This document shows positions 5,904 to 52,749 of a stretch of 64,000 bases of DNA, piece after piece. The first letter of the stretch is position 1; each line of letters begins with the position of its first letter. Origin of the DNA: Hyphomicrobiales bacterium (lineage in GTDB: Bacteria; Pseudomonadota; Alphaproteobacteria; Rhizobiales; Methyloligellaceae); NCBI GenBank assembly GCA_965228625.1, contig OZ245829.1:615137-679136 (forward strand). Direction: 5' to 3'. The notes below the pieces were generated by a model. It was not told where the DNA came from. It was given only the letters and a program-made list of their open reading frames with translations, and ran no database searches. Position numbers and translations under genes: made by a program.

Positions 5904-7484
5904 ATGAGCTCCGATATTGCGAACCGAGAACCCCGACCGTCCCGTCAGTCCGGCAATGATACCCGCTCGCTGATTGTCGTTCTCGGCGACCAGCTCTCGG
6001 CCGACATCTCAAGCCTGGCCGCCGGCTCGAACACCCGTGATGTGGTGCTCATGGCGGAGGTGATGGAAGAGGCAACCTATGTGCCGCATCACAAGAAGAA
6101 GATCGCCTTCCTGTTTTCGGCCATGCGCCATTTCGCCGATAGCTTGAACGACGCCGGCTGGACGGTCGAATACACCCGGCTGGATGTCGGCGAGAACACC
6201 GGATCCTTCACCGGGGAAGTCGCACGCGCCCTTGAACGTCACGCCTGCAATGAAATCATCGTCACGGAACCGGGCGAGTGGCGGGTCCTGGAAGCGATGC
6301 GCACCTGGCCGGACCGCTTCGGCGTGCCGGTCCGAATTCTCACCGATGACCGCTTCATCTGCTCGCGCGAGGATTTCGCCGAGTGGGCCGCGCCGCGAAA
6401 GCAGTTGCGCATGGAGTATTTTTACCGCGACATGCGCCGCCGCACCGGCCTGCTCATGAACGGCGCGGAACCGGAGGGCGGGCGATGGAACTACGACGTC
6501 GAGAACCGCAAGCCGGCCCGCGGTGAACTCACCTTTCCGCGAGCCTACCGCGTGGCGCCGGACGCAACGACAAACGAGGTCCTGGACCTCGTGAGCGCGC
6601 GCTTTGCTGACCATTTCGGCGACCTTCAGCCCTTCTGGTTCGCGGTAACGCCCGCGGATGCGGAAGCCGCGCTCGACCACTTCATCAACGCCGCGCTCCC
6701 GAGTTTTGGCGACTACCAGGACGCGATGCTTCAGGACGAGCGGTTCATCTACCACTCCGTTCTTTCGCTCTATATCAATGCCGGGCTTCTCGACCCGTTG
6801 GATGTGTGCCGCCGGGTGGAGGCGGCCTTTCACGAAGGTCAGGCGCCCCTGAATGCCGCGGAGGGCTTCATTCGGCAGATCATCGGCTGGCGCGAATACG
6901 TACGCGGCATTTATTGGCTCAAAATGCCGGACTATCGCGAGCAGAACCATTTGGGCGCGGTGCGGCCGCTCCCGGATTTCTACTGGACCGGCGATACCGA
7001 TATGGCGTGCCTCCACGCCGCCATCGCCCAGACCCGGGAAGAGGCCTACGCGCACCATATTCAGCGCCTCATGGTCACGGGAACCTTCGCGATGCTCGCG
7101 GGGGTCGACCCCCATGCCGTGCATGAGTGGTACCTCGCCGTATACGCGGACGCCTATGAGTGGGTGGAGCTGCCGAACACGCTCGGCATGAGCCAGTTCG
7201 CCGATGGCGGTTTGCTGGGCTCAAAGCCCTATGCGGCCAGCGGCAACTACATCAACAAGATGTCCGACTACTGCCGCGGATGCCGTTATGACGTGAAGCA
7301 GAAAACCGGCGAAGGGGCGTGCCCTTTCAATCCACTCTATTGGGATTTCCTCGCCCGCAACCGCGAGAAACTGGGAGGCAACCCGCGGCTGGCGCATCCT
7401 TATCGCACGTGGGATCGCATGGAGCCGGCGCGTCAGGCGGAGACGCGGCAAAGCGCAGCGAAGGTGCTCGAAGCGCTCAGTTAG
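5904..7484 (+). CDS. cryptochrome/photolyase family protein, FeS-BCP / (6-4) photolyase-like (PhrB/CryB type)
   Basis: Start re-placed at MSSDIANRE (ATG 5904). Shows the photolyase-related pattern (LIVVLGDQL..., WREYVRGIYW, AYAHHIQRLMV) and a C-terminal Cys cluster (MACLH, CRGC, ACPF) consistent with a 4Fe-4S site. Confidence 0.75.
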   Translation: MSSDIANREPRPSRQSGNDTRSLIVVLGDQLSADISSLAAGSNTRDVVLMAEVMEEATYVPHHKKKIAFLFSAMRHFADSLNDAGWTVEYTRLDVGENTGSFTGEVARALERHACNEIIVTEPGEWRVLEAMRTWPDRFGVPVRILTDDRFICSREDFAEWAAPRKQLRMEYFYRDMRRRTGLLMNGAEPEGGRWNYDVENRKPARGELTFPRAYRVAPDATTNEVLDLVSARFADHFGDLQPFWFAVTPADAEAALDHFINAALPSFGDYQDAMLQDERFIYHSVLSLYINAGLLDPLDVCRRVEAAFHEGQAPLNAAEGFIRQIIGWREYVRGIYWLKMPDYREQNHLGAVRPLPDFYWTGDTDMACLHAAIAQTREEAYAHHIQRLMVTGTFAMLAGVDPHAVHEWYLAVYADAYEWVELPNTLGMSQFADGGLLGSKPYAASGNYINKMSDYCRGCRYDVKQKTGEGACPFNPLYWDFLARNREKLGGNPRLAHPYRTWDRMEPARQAETRQSAAKVLEALS

Positions 7485-9091: not shown

Positions 9092-9290
9092 TTGCAGGCT
9101 CCTTGCGGGAGGCGAAGTAAAGCGCCCCGCGGACACATCTTGCACGTCGGCACGAAATGCTAGCGCGCACGCCTGTTCGCGCTTTGACATGCGTCAATAG
9201 TCTTCTGCGACTTTTGTCGTGGAGGTGTTGCCCGAAAATCAGCCAGCGCATGCAATCTCGCGCTTCGATGACGCGTGATCTGGCAAAGCG

Positions 9291-41860: not shown

Positions 41861-42835
41861 CTAAGGCAGCAGCACGGTCGAGCCCGTGGTCTTGCGGCCC
41901 TCCAGATCAATGTGCGCCTGGGTAGCCTCGGCCAGCGGATAGGTCTGGTTGATCTCGATCTTGACATCGCCCGATTTCACCACGTCGAACAGGGCGCCCG
42001 AGAGCTCTTCGAGGTCGGCGCGGTCGGCAATGTGGGTGAAGAGCGTTGGGCGGGTCGCGTAGAGCGATCCCTTCTGCGCCAGAAGCCCCATATTGATGTC
42101 GGGCAGCGGGCCCGAAGCCTGGCCGAACGTGGCCCAAAGGCCGAACTTCTTCAGGCAATCCAGGGACGCCGGAAACGTGTCCTTGCCGATGGAATCGTAG
42201 ACCACGTCGCAGCCCTTGCCGTCGGTCAATTCCCTGACACGCTCCACGAAGTCTTCCTCCTGGTAGTTGATCGTGTGCGTGCACCCGAGCGACTGGGCGA
42301 GTTCGGCCTTTTCGGCGGAGCCGACGGTGCCGATCATCGTCGCGCCGAGCTTCTTCGCCCATTGACAGACGATCAACCCGACGCCGCCCGCGGCCGCGTG
42401 AAACAGAAACGTCGTGTCCGACGTCACCTTGTAGGTCCGCAACAACAGATAAGCCGCGGTCATGCCCTTGAGCATCATCGCCGCACCGGTCTGGTCCTCG
42501 ATTCCGTCAGGAAGCACGACCAGCCTGTCGGCGGGTACAATCCGGTCTTCCGCGTAAGACCCAATCGCGCCGCAATAGGCGACCCGGTCACCCGGCTTGA
42601 CGTGGGCGACGCCCTCGCCGACCGCAACGACCTCGCCCGCGCCTTCCATTCCCGGCGTGAACGGCATCTTCTCCTGGGGATAGGTTCCGGTGCGGAAATA
42701 GACGTCGATGTAATTCAGCCCGACGCCGGTCTGTTTGAGGCGGGCCTCGCCCGGTCCCGGGTCGCCGATCTCGACCTCCTCCCACTTCATGACCTCGGGG
42801 CCACCGGTCTCATGGATCTGAATTGCATGCGTCAT
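41861..42835 (-). CDS. qor: NADPH:quinone oxidoreductase (zeta-crystallin type MDR)
   Basis: Start at MTHAIQIHETGGPEVM. NYIDVYFRTGTYP, AAGGVG cofactor motif. Confidence 0.85.
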   Translation of the reverse strand: MTHAIQIHETGGPEVMKWEEVEIGDPGPGEARLKQTGVGLNYIDVYFRTGTYPQEKMPFTPGMEGAGEVVAVGEGVAHVKPGDRVAYCGAIGSYAEDRIVPADRLVVLPDGIEDQTGAAMMLKGMTAAYLLLRTYKVTSDTTFLFHAAAGGVGLIVCQWAKKLGATMIGTVGSAEKAELAQSLGCTHTINYQEEDFVERVRELTDGKGCDVVYDSIGKDTFPASLDCLKKFGLWATFGQASGPLPDINMGLLAQKGSLYATRPTLFTHIADRADLEELSGALFDVVKSGDVKIEINQTYPLAEATQAHIDLEGRKTTGSTVLLP

Positions 42836-48028: not shown

Positions 48029-48511
48029 ATGGCCGAATTAAGCGATGCCAACAAGCGGTTCGTCGACGGCGCGAAGACGTGCGGCATCGACGTCGAAATC
48101 CGTGTCATGGCGGACAGCACGCGCACTGCCGAGGATGCGGCGCGGGCGTGTGGCTGCACCGTCGAACGGATCGTCAAGTCACTGGTCTTCCAGGGCAGAC
48201 AGACAGGCAAACCGTACCTTCTTCTCGTGTCGGGCCCCAACCGTGTGAACGAGCAAGGCGTCGCGGCGATCATCGGCGAGGAACTCCGGAGGCCCGACGC
48301 GGATTTCGTGCGGGAGACGACCGGCTATTCCATCGGCGGCATCCCGCCCCTCGCCCACAAGACGCCGCTTGCGACCTATATGGACGGCGACCTGCTGACC
48401 CACGAAACGGTCTGGGCGGCGGCCGGCACGCCGAAGGCGGTGTTCGAGGTTGCCCCCGAAACCCTCCGCGACGCCGCCGGCGCGGAGGTCATTGTCGTAA
48501 CGGGTAGCTGA
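48029..48511 (+). CDS. YbaK/EbsC family aminoacyl-tRNA deacylase-like protein
   Basis: ...IVKSLVF... and GYSIGGIPP motifs, 160 aa. Confidence 0.8.
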   Translation: MAELSDANKRFVDGAKTCGIDVEIRVMADSTRTAEDAARACGCTVERIVKSLVFQGRQTGKPYLLLVSGPNRVNEQGVAAIIGEELRRPDADFVRETTGYSIGGIPPLAHKTPLATYMDGDLLTHETVWAAAGTPKAVFEVAPETLRDAAGAEVIVVTGS

Positions 48512-48525
48512 CGGCCGCGCCCTGC

Positions 48526-48565
48526 AAAAGGTGAAGAGCCGCTCACCCGTGAGGGTGAACGGCTC
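48526..48565 (-). terminator. rho-independent-type terminator of cassette A (minus strand)
   Basis: 13-bp stem 48536-48548/48553-48565. The one non-Watson-Crick position is G-U only in the minus-strand RNA. The U-rich tail corresponds to plus AAAAGGTGAA. Confidence 0.55.
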
Positions 48566-48668
48566 GACGACTCTATGAAGTGCGTCAGATTTTGGAGGGC
48601 GGGACGGACCGTACGATTTCGAAGCAAACGGCCCGCCTCGACCTCCCAATGCAATCCGTAAGGACTGC

Positions 48669-48788
48669 TTAGTTACCGACCAGCGACTGGATGTACCAGA
48701 ACTTGTCCGCCTTGCTCAGGGCATATGCGGCATTGGTCATGACAAACGCGGAAGCGGCCAACGTGAGAGCTGTGAGGGTGGTCTTCAT
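48669..48788 (-). CDS. 39-aa secreted mini-protein, copy A (MKTTLTALTLAASAFVMTNAAYA/LSKADKFWYIQSLVGN)
   Basis: Below the ORF-track cutoff, translated codon by codon. SD GAAGGAG 8 nt upstream, Sec-type signal peptide with A-x-A site, TAA stop. Confidence 0.6.
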   Translation of the reverse strand: MKTTLTALTLAASAFVMTNAAYALSKADKFWYIQSLVGN

Positions 48789-48933
48789 GAGATGTACTCC
48801 TTCGATCTTTTCCATTCACATTCACATCACCGGCTCTAGGCGGTTGGGAGGAAGCCCGCCGGCGTGCCCTAACATTTGGGAAGGGCCGGCACGGAAAGAA
48901 GGACATCTCGCGGGCGTGTCATAATTGTTGTCC
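48789..48933 (-). promoter_or_regulatory. 145-nt structured 5' leader of mini-protein gene A (SD-sequestering helix plus two CU-rich-loop hairpins)
   Basis: Identical in both copies. GAGAUGUCCUUC (plus 48898-48909) is complementary to GAAGG-AGU-ACAUCUC (plus 48789-48803), which covers the SD and spacer. Internal hairpins are CGUGCC/GGCACG and GGCGG/CCGCC. Confidence 0.4.
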
Positions 48934-49188
48934 GCGCGGTGCGCGTGAGCGGAAAATGTCACCTGACCGTAACGGAGTGAATATGAACAAGCAGCTTCCG
49001 CCGGAGCGCGTTTTTCGCTGAAATCCGCGCCTTTCAGGGTCGCCTGACGTGCGGACTGCCGTCATGTAACAGTGATCACGCTGAATTTTGGACCGGAATG
49101 AAACCATTCGGCGCCGGCATCCGTTCGCGCGCGCTCATCCGTGATGGACGTGTGTTTTTGATGCTTCCGGAGGCGTCCGGCTGACGGT

Positions 49189-49319
49189 TCACCCGGCCGA
49201 TACTACGGCTCGCGGGACCCCCGGTTGTCCGATTTCACATTCGAGCGCTTCGCGGTCCCAGCCTCCGGTGTTGGCGGCGGCCCCATAGGTCGAGGTGAGG
49301 AACTGCAGAAGCGCGGCCG
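49189..49319 (-). pseudogene. relic of the 3' end of a second DUF5996 gene
   Basis: About 131 bp align by eye with the 3' end of the intact gene at 50399-50529. Encodes ...ALLQFLTSTYGAAANTGGWDREALECEIGQPGVPRAVVSAG versus ...ALLQFLISTYEAAASTGGWDREALECEIGRPGVPRAVVSAV. Similarity stops abruptly upstream. Confidence 0.6.
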
Positions 49320-49377
49320 GCGCCGAGGTCATCGACGTGACGGGTGGGCGACCGCGTCGCCGGCCTTGAGACATGCG

Positions 49378-50316
49378 CTAGCGGCCGCGCGTCTGGATCG
49401 GCGGCAGTACACGTTCGATCTGATCCCGTTTGTCTTCGTGCTGCGGCGGCAGTTTGAGCGCGTGGCCGAGTTCGTCAATTGGTTCGTCCACCGCGAATCC
49501 GGGTGGATCGGTCGCAATCTCGAACAGGACGCCGCCCGGCTCACGAAAGTAGATCGACTTGAAGTACTGACGGTCTATCACGGGCGTGACGTCCAGGCCG
49601 AACTCCCTGACCCGTTCGCGCCACTGCGACAAAGCGCCTTCGTCCTCGGCCCGAAACGCCACGTGATGGATGGTGCCGCTTCCCTGTCTGCCTATCGACT
49701 GACCATTGGGGTGCACCAGATCCACGTGCGTGCCCTGCCCGTTGGTATGTGCGGTGAAGCGCTGCCGCAGCCCGGCCGGTTCAACTGTTTCCGGCCCCTG
49801 CCGGTAGCCGAACAGGTCAGTCATGAGCCGCGCCGTGGGCTCGGTGTTGTTCAGTAGAAGCGTGACAGAGTGAAATCCGGCGACAGTCGGGCCGTTCGCC
49901 CGAAGACTGTCCGCGCTCGCCGTCTCGATGAGTTCGATCGCAAAACGGTCGGGATCGTGCACGGTGATGAATTGCTCGCCAAACCTGCCGTCCGGTCCAT
50001 CGAAATCGTGCCCCGCTTCGGCAAGATACGCCATCCACGTCTCTAACCCGCCCGGCCGCACGGCATACGCAACGGTGCTCGCCATTCCGTGGCCGGCGCG
50101 CCCGGGTGCGGCGTCGGCGAAGGGAAAGAACGTCAGGATCGATCCGGGAGTACCTGCCTCGTCCCCGTAATAGAGATGATAAGTGTCAGGCGCATCGAAA
50201 TTGACAGTCTTCTTTACCAGCCGCTGCTTCAGGACACCGACATAAAAATCGACATTGTCCTGGGGCGGCCCCGAAATCGCCGTGACGTGATGCAGACCGG
50301 AAATCGTGCTGCTCAT
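49378..50316 (-). CDS. ring-cleaving dioxygenase, two-domain VOC (glyoxalase/extradiol) family
   Basis: MSSTISGLHHVTAISG...NVDFY...LG...VK.TVNFD.P..YHLYYGD signature. Confidence 0.8.
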   Translation of the reverse strand: MSSTISGLHHVTAISGPPQDNVDFYVGVLKQRLVKKTVNFDAPDTYHLYYGDEAGTPGSILTFFPFADAAPGRAGHGMASTVAYAVRPGGLETWMAYLAEAGHDFDGPDGRFGEQFITVHDPDRFAIELIETASADSLRANGPTVAGFHSVTLLLNNTEPTARLMTDLFGYRQGPETVEPAGLRQRFTAHTNGQGTHVDLVHPNGQSIGRQGSGTIHHVAFRAEDEGALSQWRERVREFGLDVTPVIDRQYFKSIYFREPGGVLFEIATDPPGFAVDEPIDELGHALKLPPQHEDKRDQIERVLPPIQTRGR

Positions 50317-50398: not shown

Positions 50399-51367
50399 TC
50401 ACACAGCCGATACGACTGCCCGCGGGACCCCCGGTCGTCCGATTTCACACTCCAACGCTTCGCGGTCCCAGCCTCCGGTGCTGGCGGCAGCCTCATAGGT
50501 TGAGATCAGGAACTGCAGAAGCGCGGCCGCCGGATCGTCTGAAGTGCGCACCGCTTCGTAAGGCAGCAGAAACTCGCCCAGAGTGTCGTCGAACCTCGCA
50601 CCCGCAGGCCCGACCTTTTGATCCTTGAAATCCTCCGGTGTCGCGTAGGCATAGGAATAGAACATGGCCTCATCGACCCCGTTTCCGCCCGGCCAGAACC
50701 CGGCGGAGGAAACCTCGTGACTGTACGCTTCCTGCGTGACGCTGTCCGGGAGGTGCGGAATGCCGCCGGGATGCAGAGGCGCAGGCCGCCCCGAGAACCG
50801 CGTCACGGCCAGATCGAACGCGCCCCAGAACAGGTGAACCGGGCTGACCTTGCCGACAAAGCCGGTGCGAAAGTGCTGAAACACGCGTTCGATTTGCAAT
50901 AGCGCGCGATGAAGTTTCTCCACGGCTTCGGCATCGTAGGGCCGTTCCTGCGTGTCCTCGGCGAACGGAACGGGGTCGGGCATTTCGTTCGGTACGCCGT
51001 GAATTTTTGGGGTACCGCCGACCGCGGAGATGAGGCGGCGGGTGCGATCCAGGAACTCCGCGACACTCATCGCTTTCAGGCCGAAACTCTCCTCCGCACC
51101 GTTATCAGCCCGCGCAATCAGCCTGTGGTCGATCACGTCGAAATCAAGCGAGATCTCTCGGGAAGGATCGGGCACCGGCCCGGTCGTCAGTCCCCTCGGC
51201 GTCACATAAAACGTCGCATGCCAGGAATGGTTGACCCATGGCGTATGGGCGAGACGGTATTTCCCGACGACCTGCGACCACAAGTGAAGTGCCGTCCCCG
51301 TCTCACGCCACGCCTTGTAGTTGAGAACGGGCCATTCATTGCTCAAAGTGAATTTGTCGCCGCTCAT
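50399..51367 (-). CDS. DUF5996 family protein
   Basis: SD GGGAGG. W..T...LHLWSQVVGKYRLA..PW.NHSWH..FYVT.RGLTT pattern recognised as DUF5996. Confidence 0.7.
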   Translation of the reverse strand: MSGDKFTLSNEWPVLNYKAWRETGTALHLWSQVVGKYRLAHTPWVNHSWHATFYVTPRGLTTGPVPDPSREISLDFDVIDHRLIARADNGAEESFGLKAMSVAEFLDRTRRLISAVGGTPKIHGVPNEMPDPVPFAEDTQERPYDAEAVEKLHRALLQIERVFQHFRTGFVGKVSPVHLFWGAFDLAVTRFSGRPAPLHPGGIPHLPDSVTQEAYSHEVSSAGFWPGGNGVDEAMFYSYAYATPEDFKDQKVGPAGARFDDTLGEFLLPYEAVRTSDDPAAALLQFLISTYEAAASTGGWDREALECEIGRPGVPRAVVSAV

Positions 51368-52068: not shown

Positions 52069-52134
52069 CCCGGCACGCGCGCGCGTGATGGACGTCGGCG
52101 TGCTGACGCGACCGGCGGCTGAATGTGCAACCCT

Positions 52135-52176
52135 CAAAACGACTCAAGCCGCCCACCCCGAAGGATGAACGGCTTG
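52135..52176 (-). terminator. rho-independent-type terminator of cassette B (minus strand)
   Basis: 14-bp stem 52145-52158/52163-52176. Three positions pair only as G-U in the minus-strand RNA. Covaries with copy A (GAGCCG/CGGCUC versus CAAGCCG/CGGCUUG). Confidence 0.5.
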
Positions 52177-52277
52177 AACGACGGGAAAGATGTCGTCAGT
52201 TCCTGGGGTCGAGACGGGCCGTCCGATTTCGAAACAACCGGCCCGCCTCAACTCCCAAAGCAACCCTGAAGGACTGC

Positions 52278-52397
52278 TTAGTTGCCGACCAGCGACTGGA
52301 TGTACCAGAACTTGTCCGCCTTGCTCAGGGCATATGCGGCATTGGTCATGACAAACGCGGAAGCGGTCAACGTGAGAGCTGTGAGGGTGGTCTTCAT
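52278..52397 (-). CDS. 39-aa secreted mini-protein, copy B (Ala11Thr relative to copy A)
   Basis: Same frame, SD and stop as copy A. The only differences are one synonymous Gly codon and one Ala/Thr change in the signal peptide. Confidence 0.6.
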   Translation of the reverse strand: MKTTLTALTLTASAFVMTNAAYALSKADKFWYIQSLVGN

Positions 52398-52542
52398 GAG
52401 ATGTACTCCTTCGATCTTTTCCATTCACATTCACATCACCGGCTCTAGGCGGTTGGGAGGAAGCCCGCCGGCGTGCCCTAACATTTGGGAAGGGCCGGCA
52501 CGGAAAGAAGGACATCTCGCGGGCGTGTCATAATTGTTGTCC
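52398..52542 (-). promoter_or_regulatory. 145-nt structured 5' leader of mini-protein gene B
   Basis: Identical to 48789-48933. Confidence 0.4.
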
Positions 52543-52749
52543 CGCCGATGCGTTGAAGCGAAAAAGCGTACCTGGAAGACAAGAAATGGAAACGGCCGCG
52601 CGAATTCTGTGAGTGCATTTTTTGGCTGAAAACAGAGCGGTGCAGAGGGTTCGTCCGCGCAGATTAACGTCACGTAATGGACATCACGCTGTTTTTGGGA
52701 TTGCGAGTGCAACCATTCGGCACCGGCATCCGTTCGCGCCACTTGTGCG

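What the first reader, a model, noticed from the sequence alone, without database searches (positions are those of the whole stretch)
48789..48933. 145-nt leader with a long-range SD-sequestering helix enclosing two hairpins with CU-rich (anti-SD-like) loops
Reading the minus strand, GAGAUGUCCUUC near the 5' end of the conserved core is complementary to GAAGG-(AGU)-ACAUCUC directly in front of the AUG. That gives 5 + 7 bp with a 3-nt bulge, and the helix would bury the SD and spacer.

Between the two arms lie two GC-rich hairpins. CGUGCC/GGCACG has the loop GGCCCUUCCCAAAUGUUAG, and GGCGG/CCGCC has the loop GCUUCCUCCCAA. Loops of the CCUCCUCCC type are the hallmark of the alphaproteobacterial cuckoo / alpha-r14 sRNA family. 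Here, however, they sit in a 5' UTR and not in a stand-alone sRNA.

The leader is 100 percent identical between the two copies, while sequence further upstream has diverged. The architecture fits a riboswitch, an RNA thermometer, or a cis/trans dual-function riboregulator. I cannot assign it to a known class.
Basis: partly seen in the sequence, partly recalled or inferred. Interest (0 to 1): 0.65.

Follow-up and report, generated by a model that had tools for sequence, protein, structure and literature searches.

The report
Conserved anti-SD leader of micropeptide gene
The 145 bases are a real, conserved 5' leader of a tiny secreted-peptide gene in a few marine Hyphomicrobiaceae, but only part of the proposed fold (a CU box facing the ribosome-binding site, and one invariant CCUCCC-loop hairpin) holds up in relatives, so it is a modest new regulatory-leader candidate rather than a riboswitch.

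Summary
The sequence features are at the stated coordinates. Both window copies are identical over the leader.

The leader precedes a real 39-aa gene for a signal-peptide micropeptide. Six distinct leaders were recovered from syntenic loci of related marine Hyphomicrobiaceae. Three islands are invariant in them:
- a CU box, UCCUUC(U);
- a 35-nt block that folds alone into a 10-bp bulged hairpin with the loop U(U)CCUCCCAACC;
- the SD, GAAGGAGUA.

Its duplex energy beats shuffles at P≈0.005 in the window but only at P 0.05-0.37 elsewhere. One of its pairs is A·C in 4 of 6 leaders.

Hairpin 1 is not conserved (53% of cells paired). Hairpin 2 is better drawn differently.

No Rfam family matches. 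The cuckoo family's requirement of two or more motif hairpins is not met.

The A/B identity reflects gene conversion as well as selection.

The 3'UTR of the same transcripts covaries strongly, so the sequence set can detect structure where it exists.

The transcription start could not be mapped, because no RNA data are available.

Best reading (confidence ~0.4): a self-inhibitory leader in which the CU box occludes the SD, with the invariant anti-SD hairpin as a docking or trans-acting module. Interest is moderate to low.

The parts
48789..48933 (-). It runs from the edge of the A/B identity tract to the base before the AUG.
   Evidence: nhmmer finds it only in front of sORF homologues
52398..52542 (-). 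Leader of sORF copy B, 100% identical to copy A
48897..48903 (-). CU box UCCUUCU. UCCUUC is invariant in all 6 leaders and complementary to GAAGGA of the SD region.
48829..48863 (-). Invariant 35-nt block. It forms a 10-bp stem with a 3-nt bulge (GCCGGCGGGC / GCCU-AGA-GCCGGU). The loop is UUCCUCCCAACC (48853..48842).
   Evidence: -15 to -17 kcal/mol folded alone in every homologue
48863..48893 (-). It is specific to the window lineage and is not conserved.
   Evidence: 53% of cells paired; uncompensated changes in X12 and X16 contigs; P~0 in the window ensemble
48789..48803 (-). GAAGGAGUA is invariant; the spacer varies.
48910..48937 (-). Conserved block (C)GCGG-ACAACAAnnAUnACACGC-CCGC(G). It is either a short stem (G:C, G:U and A:U at one pair) or a -10-like AAnnAT. 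Its role is unresolved.
48669..48788 (-). sORF copy A: 39 aa, a signal peptide plus a ~16-aa mature peptide
   Evidence: variable columns by codon position 17/7/24; in-frame indel
52278..52397 (-). sORF copy B (one Ala/Thr difference and one synonymous difference from copy A)
48525..48668 (-). 3'UTR with three covarying stem-loops: 48668..48651, 48649..48593, and the terminator stem 48565..48536 followed by a U tract
   Evidence: 92.9% paired, 7 pairs changed on both sides, 0/500 shuffles
49102..49127 (-). Candidate EcfG-type promoter CGAAC-N18-GTT. It lies ~290 nt upstream of the AUG and 173-174 nt upstream of the GGACAAC block in all 7 sequences.
   Evidence: motif GGAAC-N17-20-GTT from PMC6599016. 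Its function was not tested.

Best explanation
The stretch is the 5' untranslated leader of a small secreted-peptide gene. The gene occurs only in a narrow clade of marine Hyphomicrobiaceae. The window carries two paralogues kept alike by gene conversion.

The conserved anatomy is three sequence islands separated by variable linkers:
- a CU box, UCCUUC(U);
- an invariant bulged hairpin that displays U(U)CCUCCCAACC;
- a strong SD, GAAGGAGUA.

Most likely mechanism: the CU box pairs with the SD (UCCUUC:GAAGGA). This closes a domain of about 95 nt and lowers ribosome access, so the leader is self-inhibitory. In the window lineage six or seven further pairs into the SD-AUG spacer reinforce the helix.

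The invariant hairpin sits inside the closed domain. It is the probable contact for whatever tunes the switch, such as a G-rich RNA or a protein. Alternatively it is itself an anti-SD module.

Shown: the conservation pattern, the complementarities, the coding status of the sORF, and the structured 3'UTR.
Inferred: that the 5' arm is transcribed, that the pairing forms in vivo, and that it represses translation.
For: - Leader homologues always precede the sORF and are found nowhere else in the DNA held.
- UCCUUC, the 35-nt hairpin block and GAAGGAGUA are invariant, while the columns flanking them vary and carry indels.
- RNAalifold keeps UCCUUC:GAAGGA and the bulged hairpin in its consensus.
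- The SD is predicted to pair with the CU box at P 0.85-0.95 in 4 of 6 homologues.
- In the window the extended helix beats shuffles (P 0.003-0.006) and has P 0.8-1.0 in the ensemble.
- L026 keeps all 7 distal pairs through a G:C to U:G change.
- The sORF is genuinely coding, so an SD-centred control makes sense.
Against: - The conserved pairs never vary, so there is no covariation for the key helix.
- SD-core complementarity and SD paired probability are ordinary for a CU-rich leader (P 0.19 and 0.12).
- In L026 the CU box prefers a second AGAAGGA in the linker. In L035 the SD pairs locally.
- The distal arm is broken in L035 and L030a. One of its pairs is A.C in most relatives, with 48790 U>C in many environmental contigs and no change at 48908.
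- Predicted probabilities for the hairpin inside the full leader range from 0 to 0.68.
- The TSS is unknown. The only runs holding the locus are DNA.
Confidence: 0.4

Rival explanations
1. Dual-function or trans-acting RNA. The invariant hairpin is a single cuckoo-like anti-SD module. Either within the mRNA or after processing of the 5'UTR, it pairs with the ribosome-binding sites of other mRNAs.
For: - The loop reads GCUCCUCCC in L026, L035 and L030a. That is 8 of the 9 bases of the cuckoo motif CCUCCUCCC (motif from PMC4615179).
- Stem size and loop size fit the cuckoo module limits.
- The loop matches canonical GGAGG/GGGAG better than the gene's own GAAGGAG. Duplex energy with its own SD is only about -8.7 kcal/mol.
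- The loop sequence is invariant, which points to a sequence-specific partner.
Against: - Only one module is conserved. The family definition needs 2-4 adjacent motif hairpins.
- No Rfam match at E<=10 in the window region or at E<=1 in the homologous loci.
- No stand-alone copy exists in the DNA held.
- There is no terminator or processing signature after the hairpin, and no expression data.
Confidence: 0.2
2. No dedicated riboregulator. The conservation reflects recent common descent, gene conversion between paralogues and ordinary constraints on a translation-initiation region. The helix in the window is a lineage-specific accident.
For: - L033 is an A/B mosaic, so conversion homogenises the core.
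- Overall leader divergence lies between that of codon positions 1+2 and that of position 3.
- The fold z-score is -0.86.
- The helix is unusual only in the window.
- No covariation supports it.
Against: - A 35-nt block and a 6-nt CU island stay invariant across lineages whose synonymous sites differ by 33-43%.
- Neighbouring leader columns vary and carry indels over the same comparisons.
Confidence: 0.15
3. The conserved blocks act at the DNA level. The promoter or an operator lies inside the supposed leader. For example, AAnnAT at 48926..48921 could be a -10 element, or the GC-rich inverted repeats could be a regulator site. The true 5'UTR would then be shorter or differently bounded.
For: - The GGACAACAAnnATnACACGCC block is as conserved as the hairpin and contains an A2/T6 hexamer.
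- GCCGGC occurs as an inverted repeat.
- The TSS is unmapped.
Against: - No sigma-70-like promoter passes the scan in the window or in three homologous loci.
- No conserved -35 lies at a proper distance.
- One pair flanking the block changes G:C to G:U and A:U, as in an RNA stem.
- A -10 at 48926..48921 would still leave the CU box and the hairpin in the transcript.
Confidence: 0.12
4. A metabolite riboswitch or an RNA thermometer that controls the sORF.
For: - The leader is long and conserved, with predicted SD occlusion.
- A marginal 6-bp closing helix could in principle melt with temperature.
Against: - There is no multi-stem core with covarying helices. The 3'UTR of the same sequences shows clear covariation, so detection power exists.
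- No Rfam riboswitch or ROSE/fourU-type match.
- The SD is not in a local hairpin.
- In the window the 12-14 bp helix (-17 kcal/mol) is too stable for a thermometer.
- The regulated gene is a micropeptide with no metabolic link.
Confidence: 0.07

Closest known systems
Cuckoo RNA family (RSs0680/CcsR1-4, alpha-r14/NfeR1) of Rhizobiales and Rhodobacterales
   Same: - GC-rich hairpin with a C/U-rich anti-SD loop.
- The loop GCUCCUCCC in three lineages matches 8 of 9 bases of CCUCCUCCC.
- Module size (35 nt, 10 bp, 11-12-nt loop) lies within the published limits.
- Alphaproteobacterial host.
   Different: - Only one conserved module instead of 2-4 adjacent ones.
- It sits in the 5'UTR of an sORF. 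It is neither a stand-alone sRNA nor located downstream of a DUF1127 gene.
- The window lineage has an extra U in the loop (CUUCCUCCC).
- No covariance-model match.
Self-inhibitory leaders in which an upstream segment pairs long-range with the ribosome-binding site (E. coli rpoS leader type; from established knowledge)
   Same: - A distant upstream pyrimidine-rich segment is complementary to the SD region.
- It encloses a structured domain.
- Translation would need the helix to be opened.
   Different: - No activating sRNA or other trigger is known.
- The conserved helix is only 5-6 bp.
- There is no homology.
- The regulated gene is a 39-aa secreted peptide.
ROSE and fourU RNA thermometers of Alphaproteobacteria and enterobacteria
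   Same: The SD is predicted to be base-paired by a pyrimidine-rich strand in a 5'UTR with several hairpins.
   Different: - Thermometers use a local, imperfect 3'-proximal hairpin containing the SD and AUG.
- Here the partner lies ~95 nt upstream.
- No Rfam ROSE match.
- The window helix is too stable to melt.
EcfG (general stress response) promoters, GGAAC-N17-20-GTT (PMC6599016)
   Same: [C/G]GAAC-N18-GTT is conserved in 6 of 7 upstream regions. EcfG regulons include small secreted proteins.
   Different: - The box lies ~290 nt from the start codon, whereas EcfG motifs are enriched within 100 bp of it.
- The first G is C in most copies.
- The spacing is altered in L030a.
- No expression evidence.

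Membership tests
Cuckoo RNA family (PMC4615179) | Two to four adjacent hairpins, each carrying the motif in its loop, with linkers of at most 10 nt | tested here: not met
   Only hairpin 2 is conserved. Hairpin 1 is 53% paired across 6 leaders, and its loop lacks the motif outside the window lineage.
Cuckoo RNA family (PMC4615179) | Loop motif CCUCCUCCC (IUPAC variants allowed) | tested here: inconclusive
   The loops read GCUCCUCCCAA (L026, L035, L030a) or GCUUCCUCCCAA (window, L033, L028). The permitted variants are listed in Fig. 3C of the paper, which could not be read.
Cuckoo RNA family (PMC4615179) | Module geometry: hairpin of 24-50 nt, helix of at least 6 bp, loop of 9-27 nt, interruptions of at most 6 nt | tested here: met
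   35 nt, 10 bp, 3-nt bulge, 11-12-nt loop.
Cuckoo RNA family / alpha-r14 models in Rfam | Match to a curated covariance model | tested here: not met
   No hit at gathering score in the window. None at E<=10 in 48300..49300. None at E<=1 in 5 homologous loci.
Cuckoo RNA family | Trans-encoded sRNA, or co-transcribed downstream of a DUF1127 gene, with its own terminator | tested here: not met
   The element lies upstream of an sORF with no Pfam family. No terminator follows the hairpin.
Riboswitch | Conserved multi-helix aptamer whose stems covary, coupled to an expression platform | tested here: not met
   Only 2 of 23 proposed pairs change on both sides, and the consensus fold has a covariation term of +0.58. 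The positive control, the 3'UTR, shows 7 such pairs with 0/500 shuffles reaching the observed score. Only 6 sequences were available.
ROSE/fourU thermometers | Local 3'-proximal hairpin that holds the SD and AUG with weak or non-canonical pairs | tested here: not met
   The SD partner lies ~95 nt upstream. No Rfam match.
Self-inhibitory (SD-occluding) leader | An upstream segment complementary to the SD that is predicted to pair with it, and is conserved | tested here: met
   UCCUUC:GAAGGA is invariant in 6 of 6 leaders and kept by RNAalifold. Pairing probability is 0.85-0.95 in 4 of 6.
Self-inhibitory (SD-occluding) leader | The pairing reduces translation in vivo and is relieved by a signal | not testable with these tools
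   This needs reporter fusions and structure probing. No RNA data exist for the organism.
EcfG-dependent promoter | GGAAC-N17-20-GTT upstream of the transcription start | tested here: inconclusive
   [C/G]GAAC-N18-GTT is present in 6 of 7 sequences. About 4 such matches are expected by chance in 64 kb (own calculation). The support comes from conservation only.

The most novel reading that the evidence does not exclude
A single cuckoo-type anti-SD hairpin has been built into the 5'UTR of a secreted-micropeptide mRNA. This would make a dual-function RNA.

The mRNA would silence itself through the CU box. At the same time the CCUCCCAA loop would contact G-rich sites. One candidate is its own 3'UTR box UUGGGAG(G), a 7-8 nt perfect complement that is the best intramolecular partner in all seven transcripts. 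The other candidates are the ribosome-binding sites of other mRNAs.

The whole unit might be under the general stress sigma factor EcfG.
Probability: 0.12. Interest if true: 0.65.

Novelty: new member of a known kind. Interest (0 to 1): 0.35.

Why it matters
If the mechanism holds, it adds an unclassified cis-regulatory leader to the few known in Hyphomicrobiales. It would also show that the CCUCC-loop hairpin, known from stand-alone alphaproteobacterial sRNAs, can be embedded in an mRNA leader. That would hint at how such sRNA modules arise or are recruited.

The work also uncovers an orphan family of about 16-residue secreted peptides with unusually elaborate 5' and 3' UTRs. Their duplication and concerted evolution suggest that dosage or regulation matters.

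The narrow distribution and the lack of expression data limit the immediate impact.

Tried and rejected
- **Protein searches for sORF relatives.** They found only the window's own cluster. Pfam and NCBIfam gave nothing.
- **Collection scans.** Two genome-contig scans and one metagenome-contig scan, using back-translated peptide patterns, returned only chance matches. Homologues were reached instead through the neighbouring YbaK gene.
- **More distant loci.** YbaK neighbours at 66% identity and DHDPS neighbours at 78-83% have no sORF or leader.
- **RNA-seq.** The runs that hold the locus have flat depth, with 2x depth on the repeat, so they are genomic DNA.
- **uORFs.** The AUG inside the 5' arm (a 77-aa frame) and the upstream in-frame AUG (MEKIEGVHL-) are not conserved. 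The second is out of frame in L028 and stops after 3 codons in L030a. This was read from the sequences.
- **Coding upstream region.** The 62-aa frame running from the GTT box to the TGA in the GGACAAC block is open only in copy A. No frame is open in all 7 sequences.
- **Consensus structure of the 173-nt upstream region.** Almost none was found (-6.7 kcal/mol).
- **Loop-to-3'UTR kissing pair.** The 3'UTR box is the best partner of the loop everywhere. However, shuffles give P of 0.03-0.35, and UUGG of the box lies in the basal stem of 3'UTR stem-loop b. It is kept only as a speculative reading.
- **CCTCCTCCC at 42775..42783.** It lies inside a 344-aa ORF and is not an sRNA.
- **Sigma-70 promoter scans.** They were negative in the window and in three homologous loci.

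Full report
**1. What is in the sequence**

On the minus strand the window reads GGACAACAAUUAUGACACGCCCGC-GAGAUGUCCUUC-UUUC-CGUGCC-(19 nt)-GGCACG-CC-GGCGG-GCUUCCUCCCAA-CCGCC-...-GAAGG-AGU-ACAUCUC-AUG. It occupies exactly 48933..48789.

A second copy lies at 52542..52398. It is identical over the whole leader. The two differ at two positions in the following 120-nt ORF, by about 15% in the 3'UTR and by about 40% upstream.

The 5+7 bp complementarity with a 3-nt bulge is real.

**2. Is it more than chance in this one sequence?**

RNAfold puts the long-range helix into the MFE. The fold as a whole is ordinary, at -45.1 kcal/mol with z = -0.86.

The helix itself is unusual. The duplex between the upstream leader and GAAGGAGUACAUCUCAUG scores -17.3 kcal/mol. 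Shuffles average -10.7 +/- 2.1, giving P of 0.003-0.006. Its pairs have probabilities of 0.8-1.0 in the ensemble.

Complementarity to the SD core alone is common in a leader this CU-rich (P = 0.19). The SD paired probability is 0.79 against 0.61 +/- 0.15 in shuffles (P = 0.12).

**3. The downstream gene is real**

The ORF encodes MKTTLTALTLAASAFVMTNAAYALSKADKFWYIQSLVGN. This is a Sec-type signal peptide ending in AYA, followed by about 16 residues.

Protein databases hold only the window's own cluster. Pfam and NCBIfam have no family for it.

I fetched loci around homologues of the convergent neighbour YbaK. This yielded the same sORF in five further sequence types: L033, L028, L025-27, L035 and L030-32. 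L030-32 carry two tandem copies.

Variable alignment columns fall 17/7/24 on codon positions 1/2/3, and the only indel is one codon. The sORF is therefore a translated gene.

More distant loci lack both the sORF and the leader: YbaK neighbours at 66% identity and DHDPS neighbours at 78%. One source names a carrier 'Hyphomicrobiaceae bacterium'. Runs holding near-identical DNA are marine, sediment, coral, sponge and microbial-mat metagenomes.

**4. Comparative test of the leader**

Six distinct leaders align well (A2). Three islands are invariant:
- UCCUUC in the CU box;
- AGCCGGCGGGCU(U)CCUCCCAACCGCCU[A/U]GAGCCGG;
- UGAAU...GAAGGAGUA before the AUG.

The block GGACAACAAnnAUnACACGCC[C/U]GCGA is nearly invariant. 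The hairpin-1 region and the linker between hairpin 2 and the SD vary and carry indels of 1-10 nt.

| Element | Result across 6 leaders |
|---|---|
| Distal 7 bp | 76% paired |
| Five CCUUC:GAAGG pairs | never vary |
| Hairpin 1 | 53% paired |
| Hairpin 2 stem | never varies |

Within the distal arm, the pair 48908:48790 is A.C in 4 of 6 leaders. L035 has three mismatches and L030a is unpaired. One change, G:C to U:G in L026, is consistent with pairing.

Environmental contigs agree. 48790 U>C is common, with no change at 48908. Changes in the 5' arm of hairpin 1 (X12, X16) are uncompensated.

Duplex statistics for the other leaders are unremarkable: L026 P = 0.05, the rest P = 0.13-0.37.

RNAalifold keeps UCCUUC:GAAGGA. 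It redraws hairpin 2 as a 10-bp stem with a 3-nt bulge, GCCGGCGGGC / GCCU-AGA-GCCGG[U/C], with the loop U(U)CCUCCCAACC. It also adds a short stem, GCGG/CCGC, around ACAACAAUUAUGACACGC. One pair of that stem runs G:C, G:U, A:U.

Folded alone, the invariant block gives the bulged hairpin in every homologue, at -15 to -17 kcal/mol. Inside the full leader its predicted probability ranges from 0 to 0.68.

**5. Positive control**

The 3'UTRs of the same transcripts form three stem-loops, including the terminator. They are 92.9% paired, have 7 pairs changed on both sides, and 0 of 500 shuffles reach the observed scores.

This small sequence set can therefore reveal structure where it exists. The weak signal in the leader is informative: 80.4% paired, carried by invariant pairs, with 16 of 500 shuffles reaching that percentage (28 of 500 reach the covariation score).

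**6. Why the two window copies are identical**

L033 matches copy A at 65 of 73 diagnostic upstream sites and at 60 of 71 distal 3'UTR sites. It matches copy B at 8 of 10 diagnostic sites across the CDS and the first 50 nt of the 3'UTR.

Paralogues therefore exchange sequence. The 100% identity of the leaders is concerted evolution plus selection. It is not by itself proof of nucleotide-by-nucleotide constraint.

A remnant of the C-terminus of the DUF5996-like gene upstream of copy A shows that the locus arose by segmental duplication.

**7. Transcript boundaries**

No sigma-70-like promoter passes the scan in the window or in three homologous loci.

A box [C/G]GAAC-N18-GTT is conserved in 6 of 7 upstream regions. 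It fits the EcfG motif GGAAC-N17-20-GTT (PMC6599016).

This box lies about 290 nt before the AUG. It is always 173-174 nt before the GGACAAC block, although the sequence in between is poorly conserved. That intervening sequence is non-coding and has almost no consensus structure.

The runs that hold the locus are genomic DNA. The TSS is therefore unknown, and 48933 is only the edge of the identity tract.

**8. Comparison with known classes**

Rfam 15 gives no match at gathering score in the window. It gives none at E<=10 locally and none at E<=1 in five homologous loci.

The cuckoo family is defined by 2-4 adjacent hairpins. Each has CCUCCUCCC in a 9-27-nt loop, a helix of at least 6 bp and linkers of at most 10 nt. 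Members are stand-alone sRNAs or lie downstream of a DUF1127 gene (PMC4615179).

The invariant hairpin is a good single module. Its geometry fits, and its loop GCUCCUCCC in three lineages matches 8 of 9 motif bases. The multi-module requirement, the genomic setting and the model match are not met.

Riboswitch and thermometer criteria are not met either (see the membership table).

In function it most resembles self-inhibitory leaders in which a distant upstream segment occludes the ribosome-binding site.

**9. Mechanism and verdict**

Most likely (confidence ~0.4): the CU box pairs with the SD and damps translation of the micropeptide. The window lineage has strengthened this helix. The invariant CCUCCC hairpin is the contact for a partner that tunes it, or it acts itself as an anti-SD module.

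The rivals are:
- a cuckoo-like trans-acting or dual-function RNA (0.2);
- no dedicated function beyond descent and gene conversion (0.15);
- DNA-level promoter or operator elements (0.12);
- a riboswitch or thermometer (0.07).

The loop's best intramolecular complement is a conserved 3'UTR box, UUGGGAG(G). This is not significant against shuffles, and the box is partly buried in a 3'UTR stem.

The finding is real but more modest than proposed. It is a clade-restricted, unclassified leader with anti-SD features, and decisive evidence must come from TSS mapping and reporter mutagenesis.

Noticed in passing
window 48669..48788 and 52278..52397 (minus); L030 8957..9079 and 9116..9238; L026 6582..6701; L028 5643..5762; L035 1443..1565; L033 446..565: An orphan family of 39-40-aa secreted micropeptides. 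Each has a signal peptide ending in AYA and a mature part ~[LMI][ST]KA[DE]x(1-2)FWY[IVM]QSL[VTI]GN. There is no Pfam or NCBIfam match, and only one cluster among 1.84 billion representatives. The family is duplicated or tandem in several genomes.
   Followed up: partly
window 48525..48668 (minus) and the same region of copy B, 52130..52277: The sORF 3'UTR forms three stem-loops (one directly after the stop codon, a ~25-bp stem, and the terminator). Compensatory changes are clear: 7 pairs change on both sides and 0/500 shuffles reach the observed scores.
   Followed up: yes
window 49102..49127 (minus); copy B at about 52711..52736: A conserved EcfG-like box [C/G]GAAC-N18-GTT. Its distance to the GGACAAC block is fixed at 173-174 nt in all 7 sequences. 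The intervening sequence is poorly conserved, non-coding and without consensus structure. The fixed spacing is unexplained.
   Followed up: partly
window 49189..49374 (minus) compared with 50399..51367: A remnant copy of the C-terminal ~45 residues of the DUF5996-like gene lies just upstream of sORF copy A. This marks a segmental duplication around the ring-cleaving dioxygenase-like gene at 49378..50316.
   Followed up: no
L033 1..821 compared with window copies A and B: L033 is copy-A-like in its flanks but copy-B-like across the CDS and the first 50 nt of the 3'UTR. This indicates gene conversion between the paralogues.
   Followed up: yes
L026 about 6712..6724 (minus), in the linker of the leader: The L026 linker carries a second AGAAGGA. 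In the MFE it pairs with the CU box (11 of 12 complementary), which leaves the true SD in a bulge while the distal arm stays paired.
   Followed up: no
window 48842..48853 (loop) and 48642..48649 (3'UTR box UUGGGAGG): The hairpin loop CCUCCCAA is a perfect 7-8-nt complement of a conserved 3'UTR box about 20 nt after the stop codon. This box is the best partner of the loop in all seven transcripts. It is not significant against shuffles, and it is partly inside a 3'UTR stem.
   Followed up: yes
L030 9080..9115 (minus): The second tandem sORF in L030-32 has only a 36-nt spacer. The spacer repeats UGAAUGAAGGAGUAAUUCCC but carries no leader hairpin, so the leader serves the first cistron of a two-sORF operon there.
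   Followed up: no
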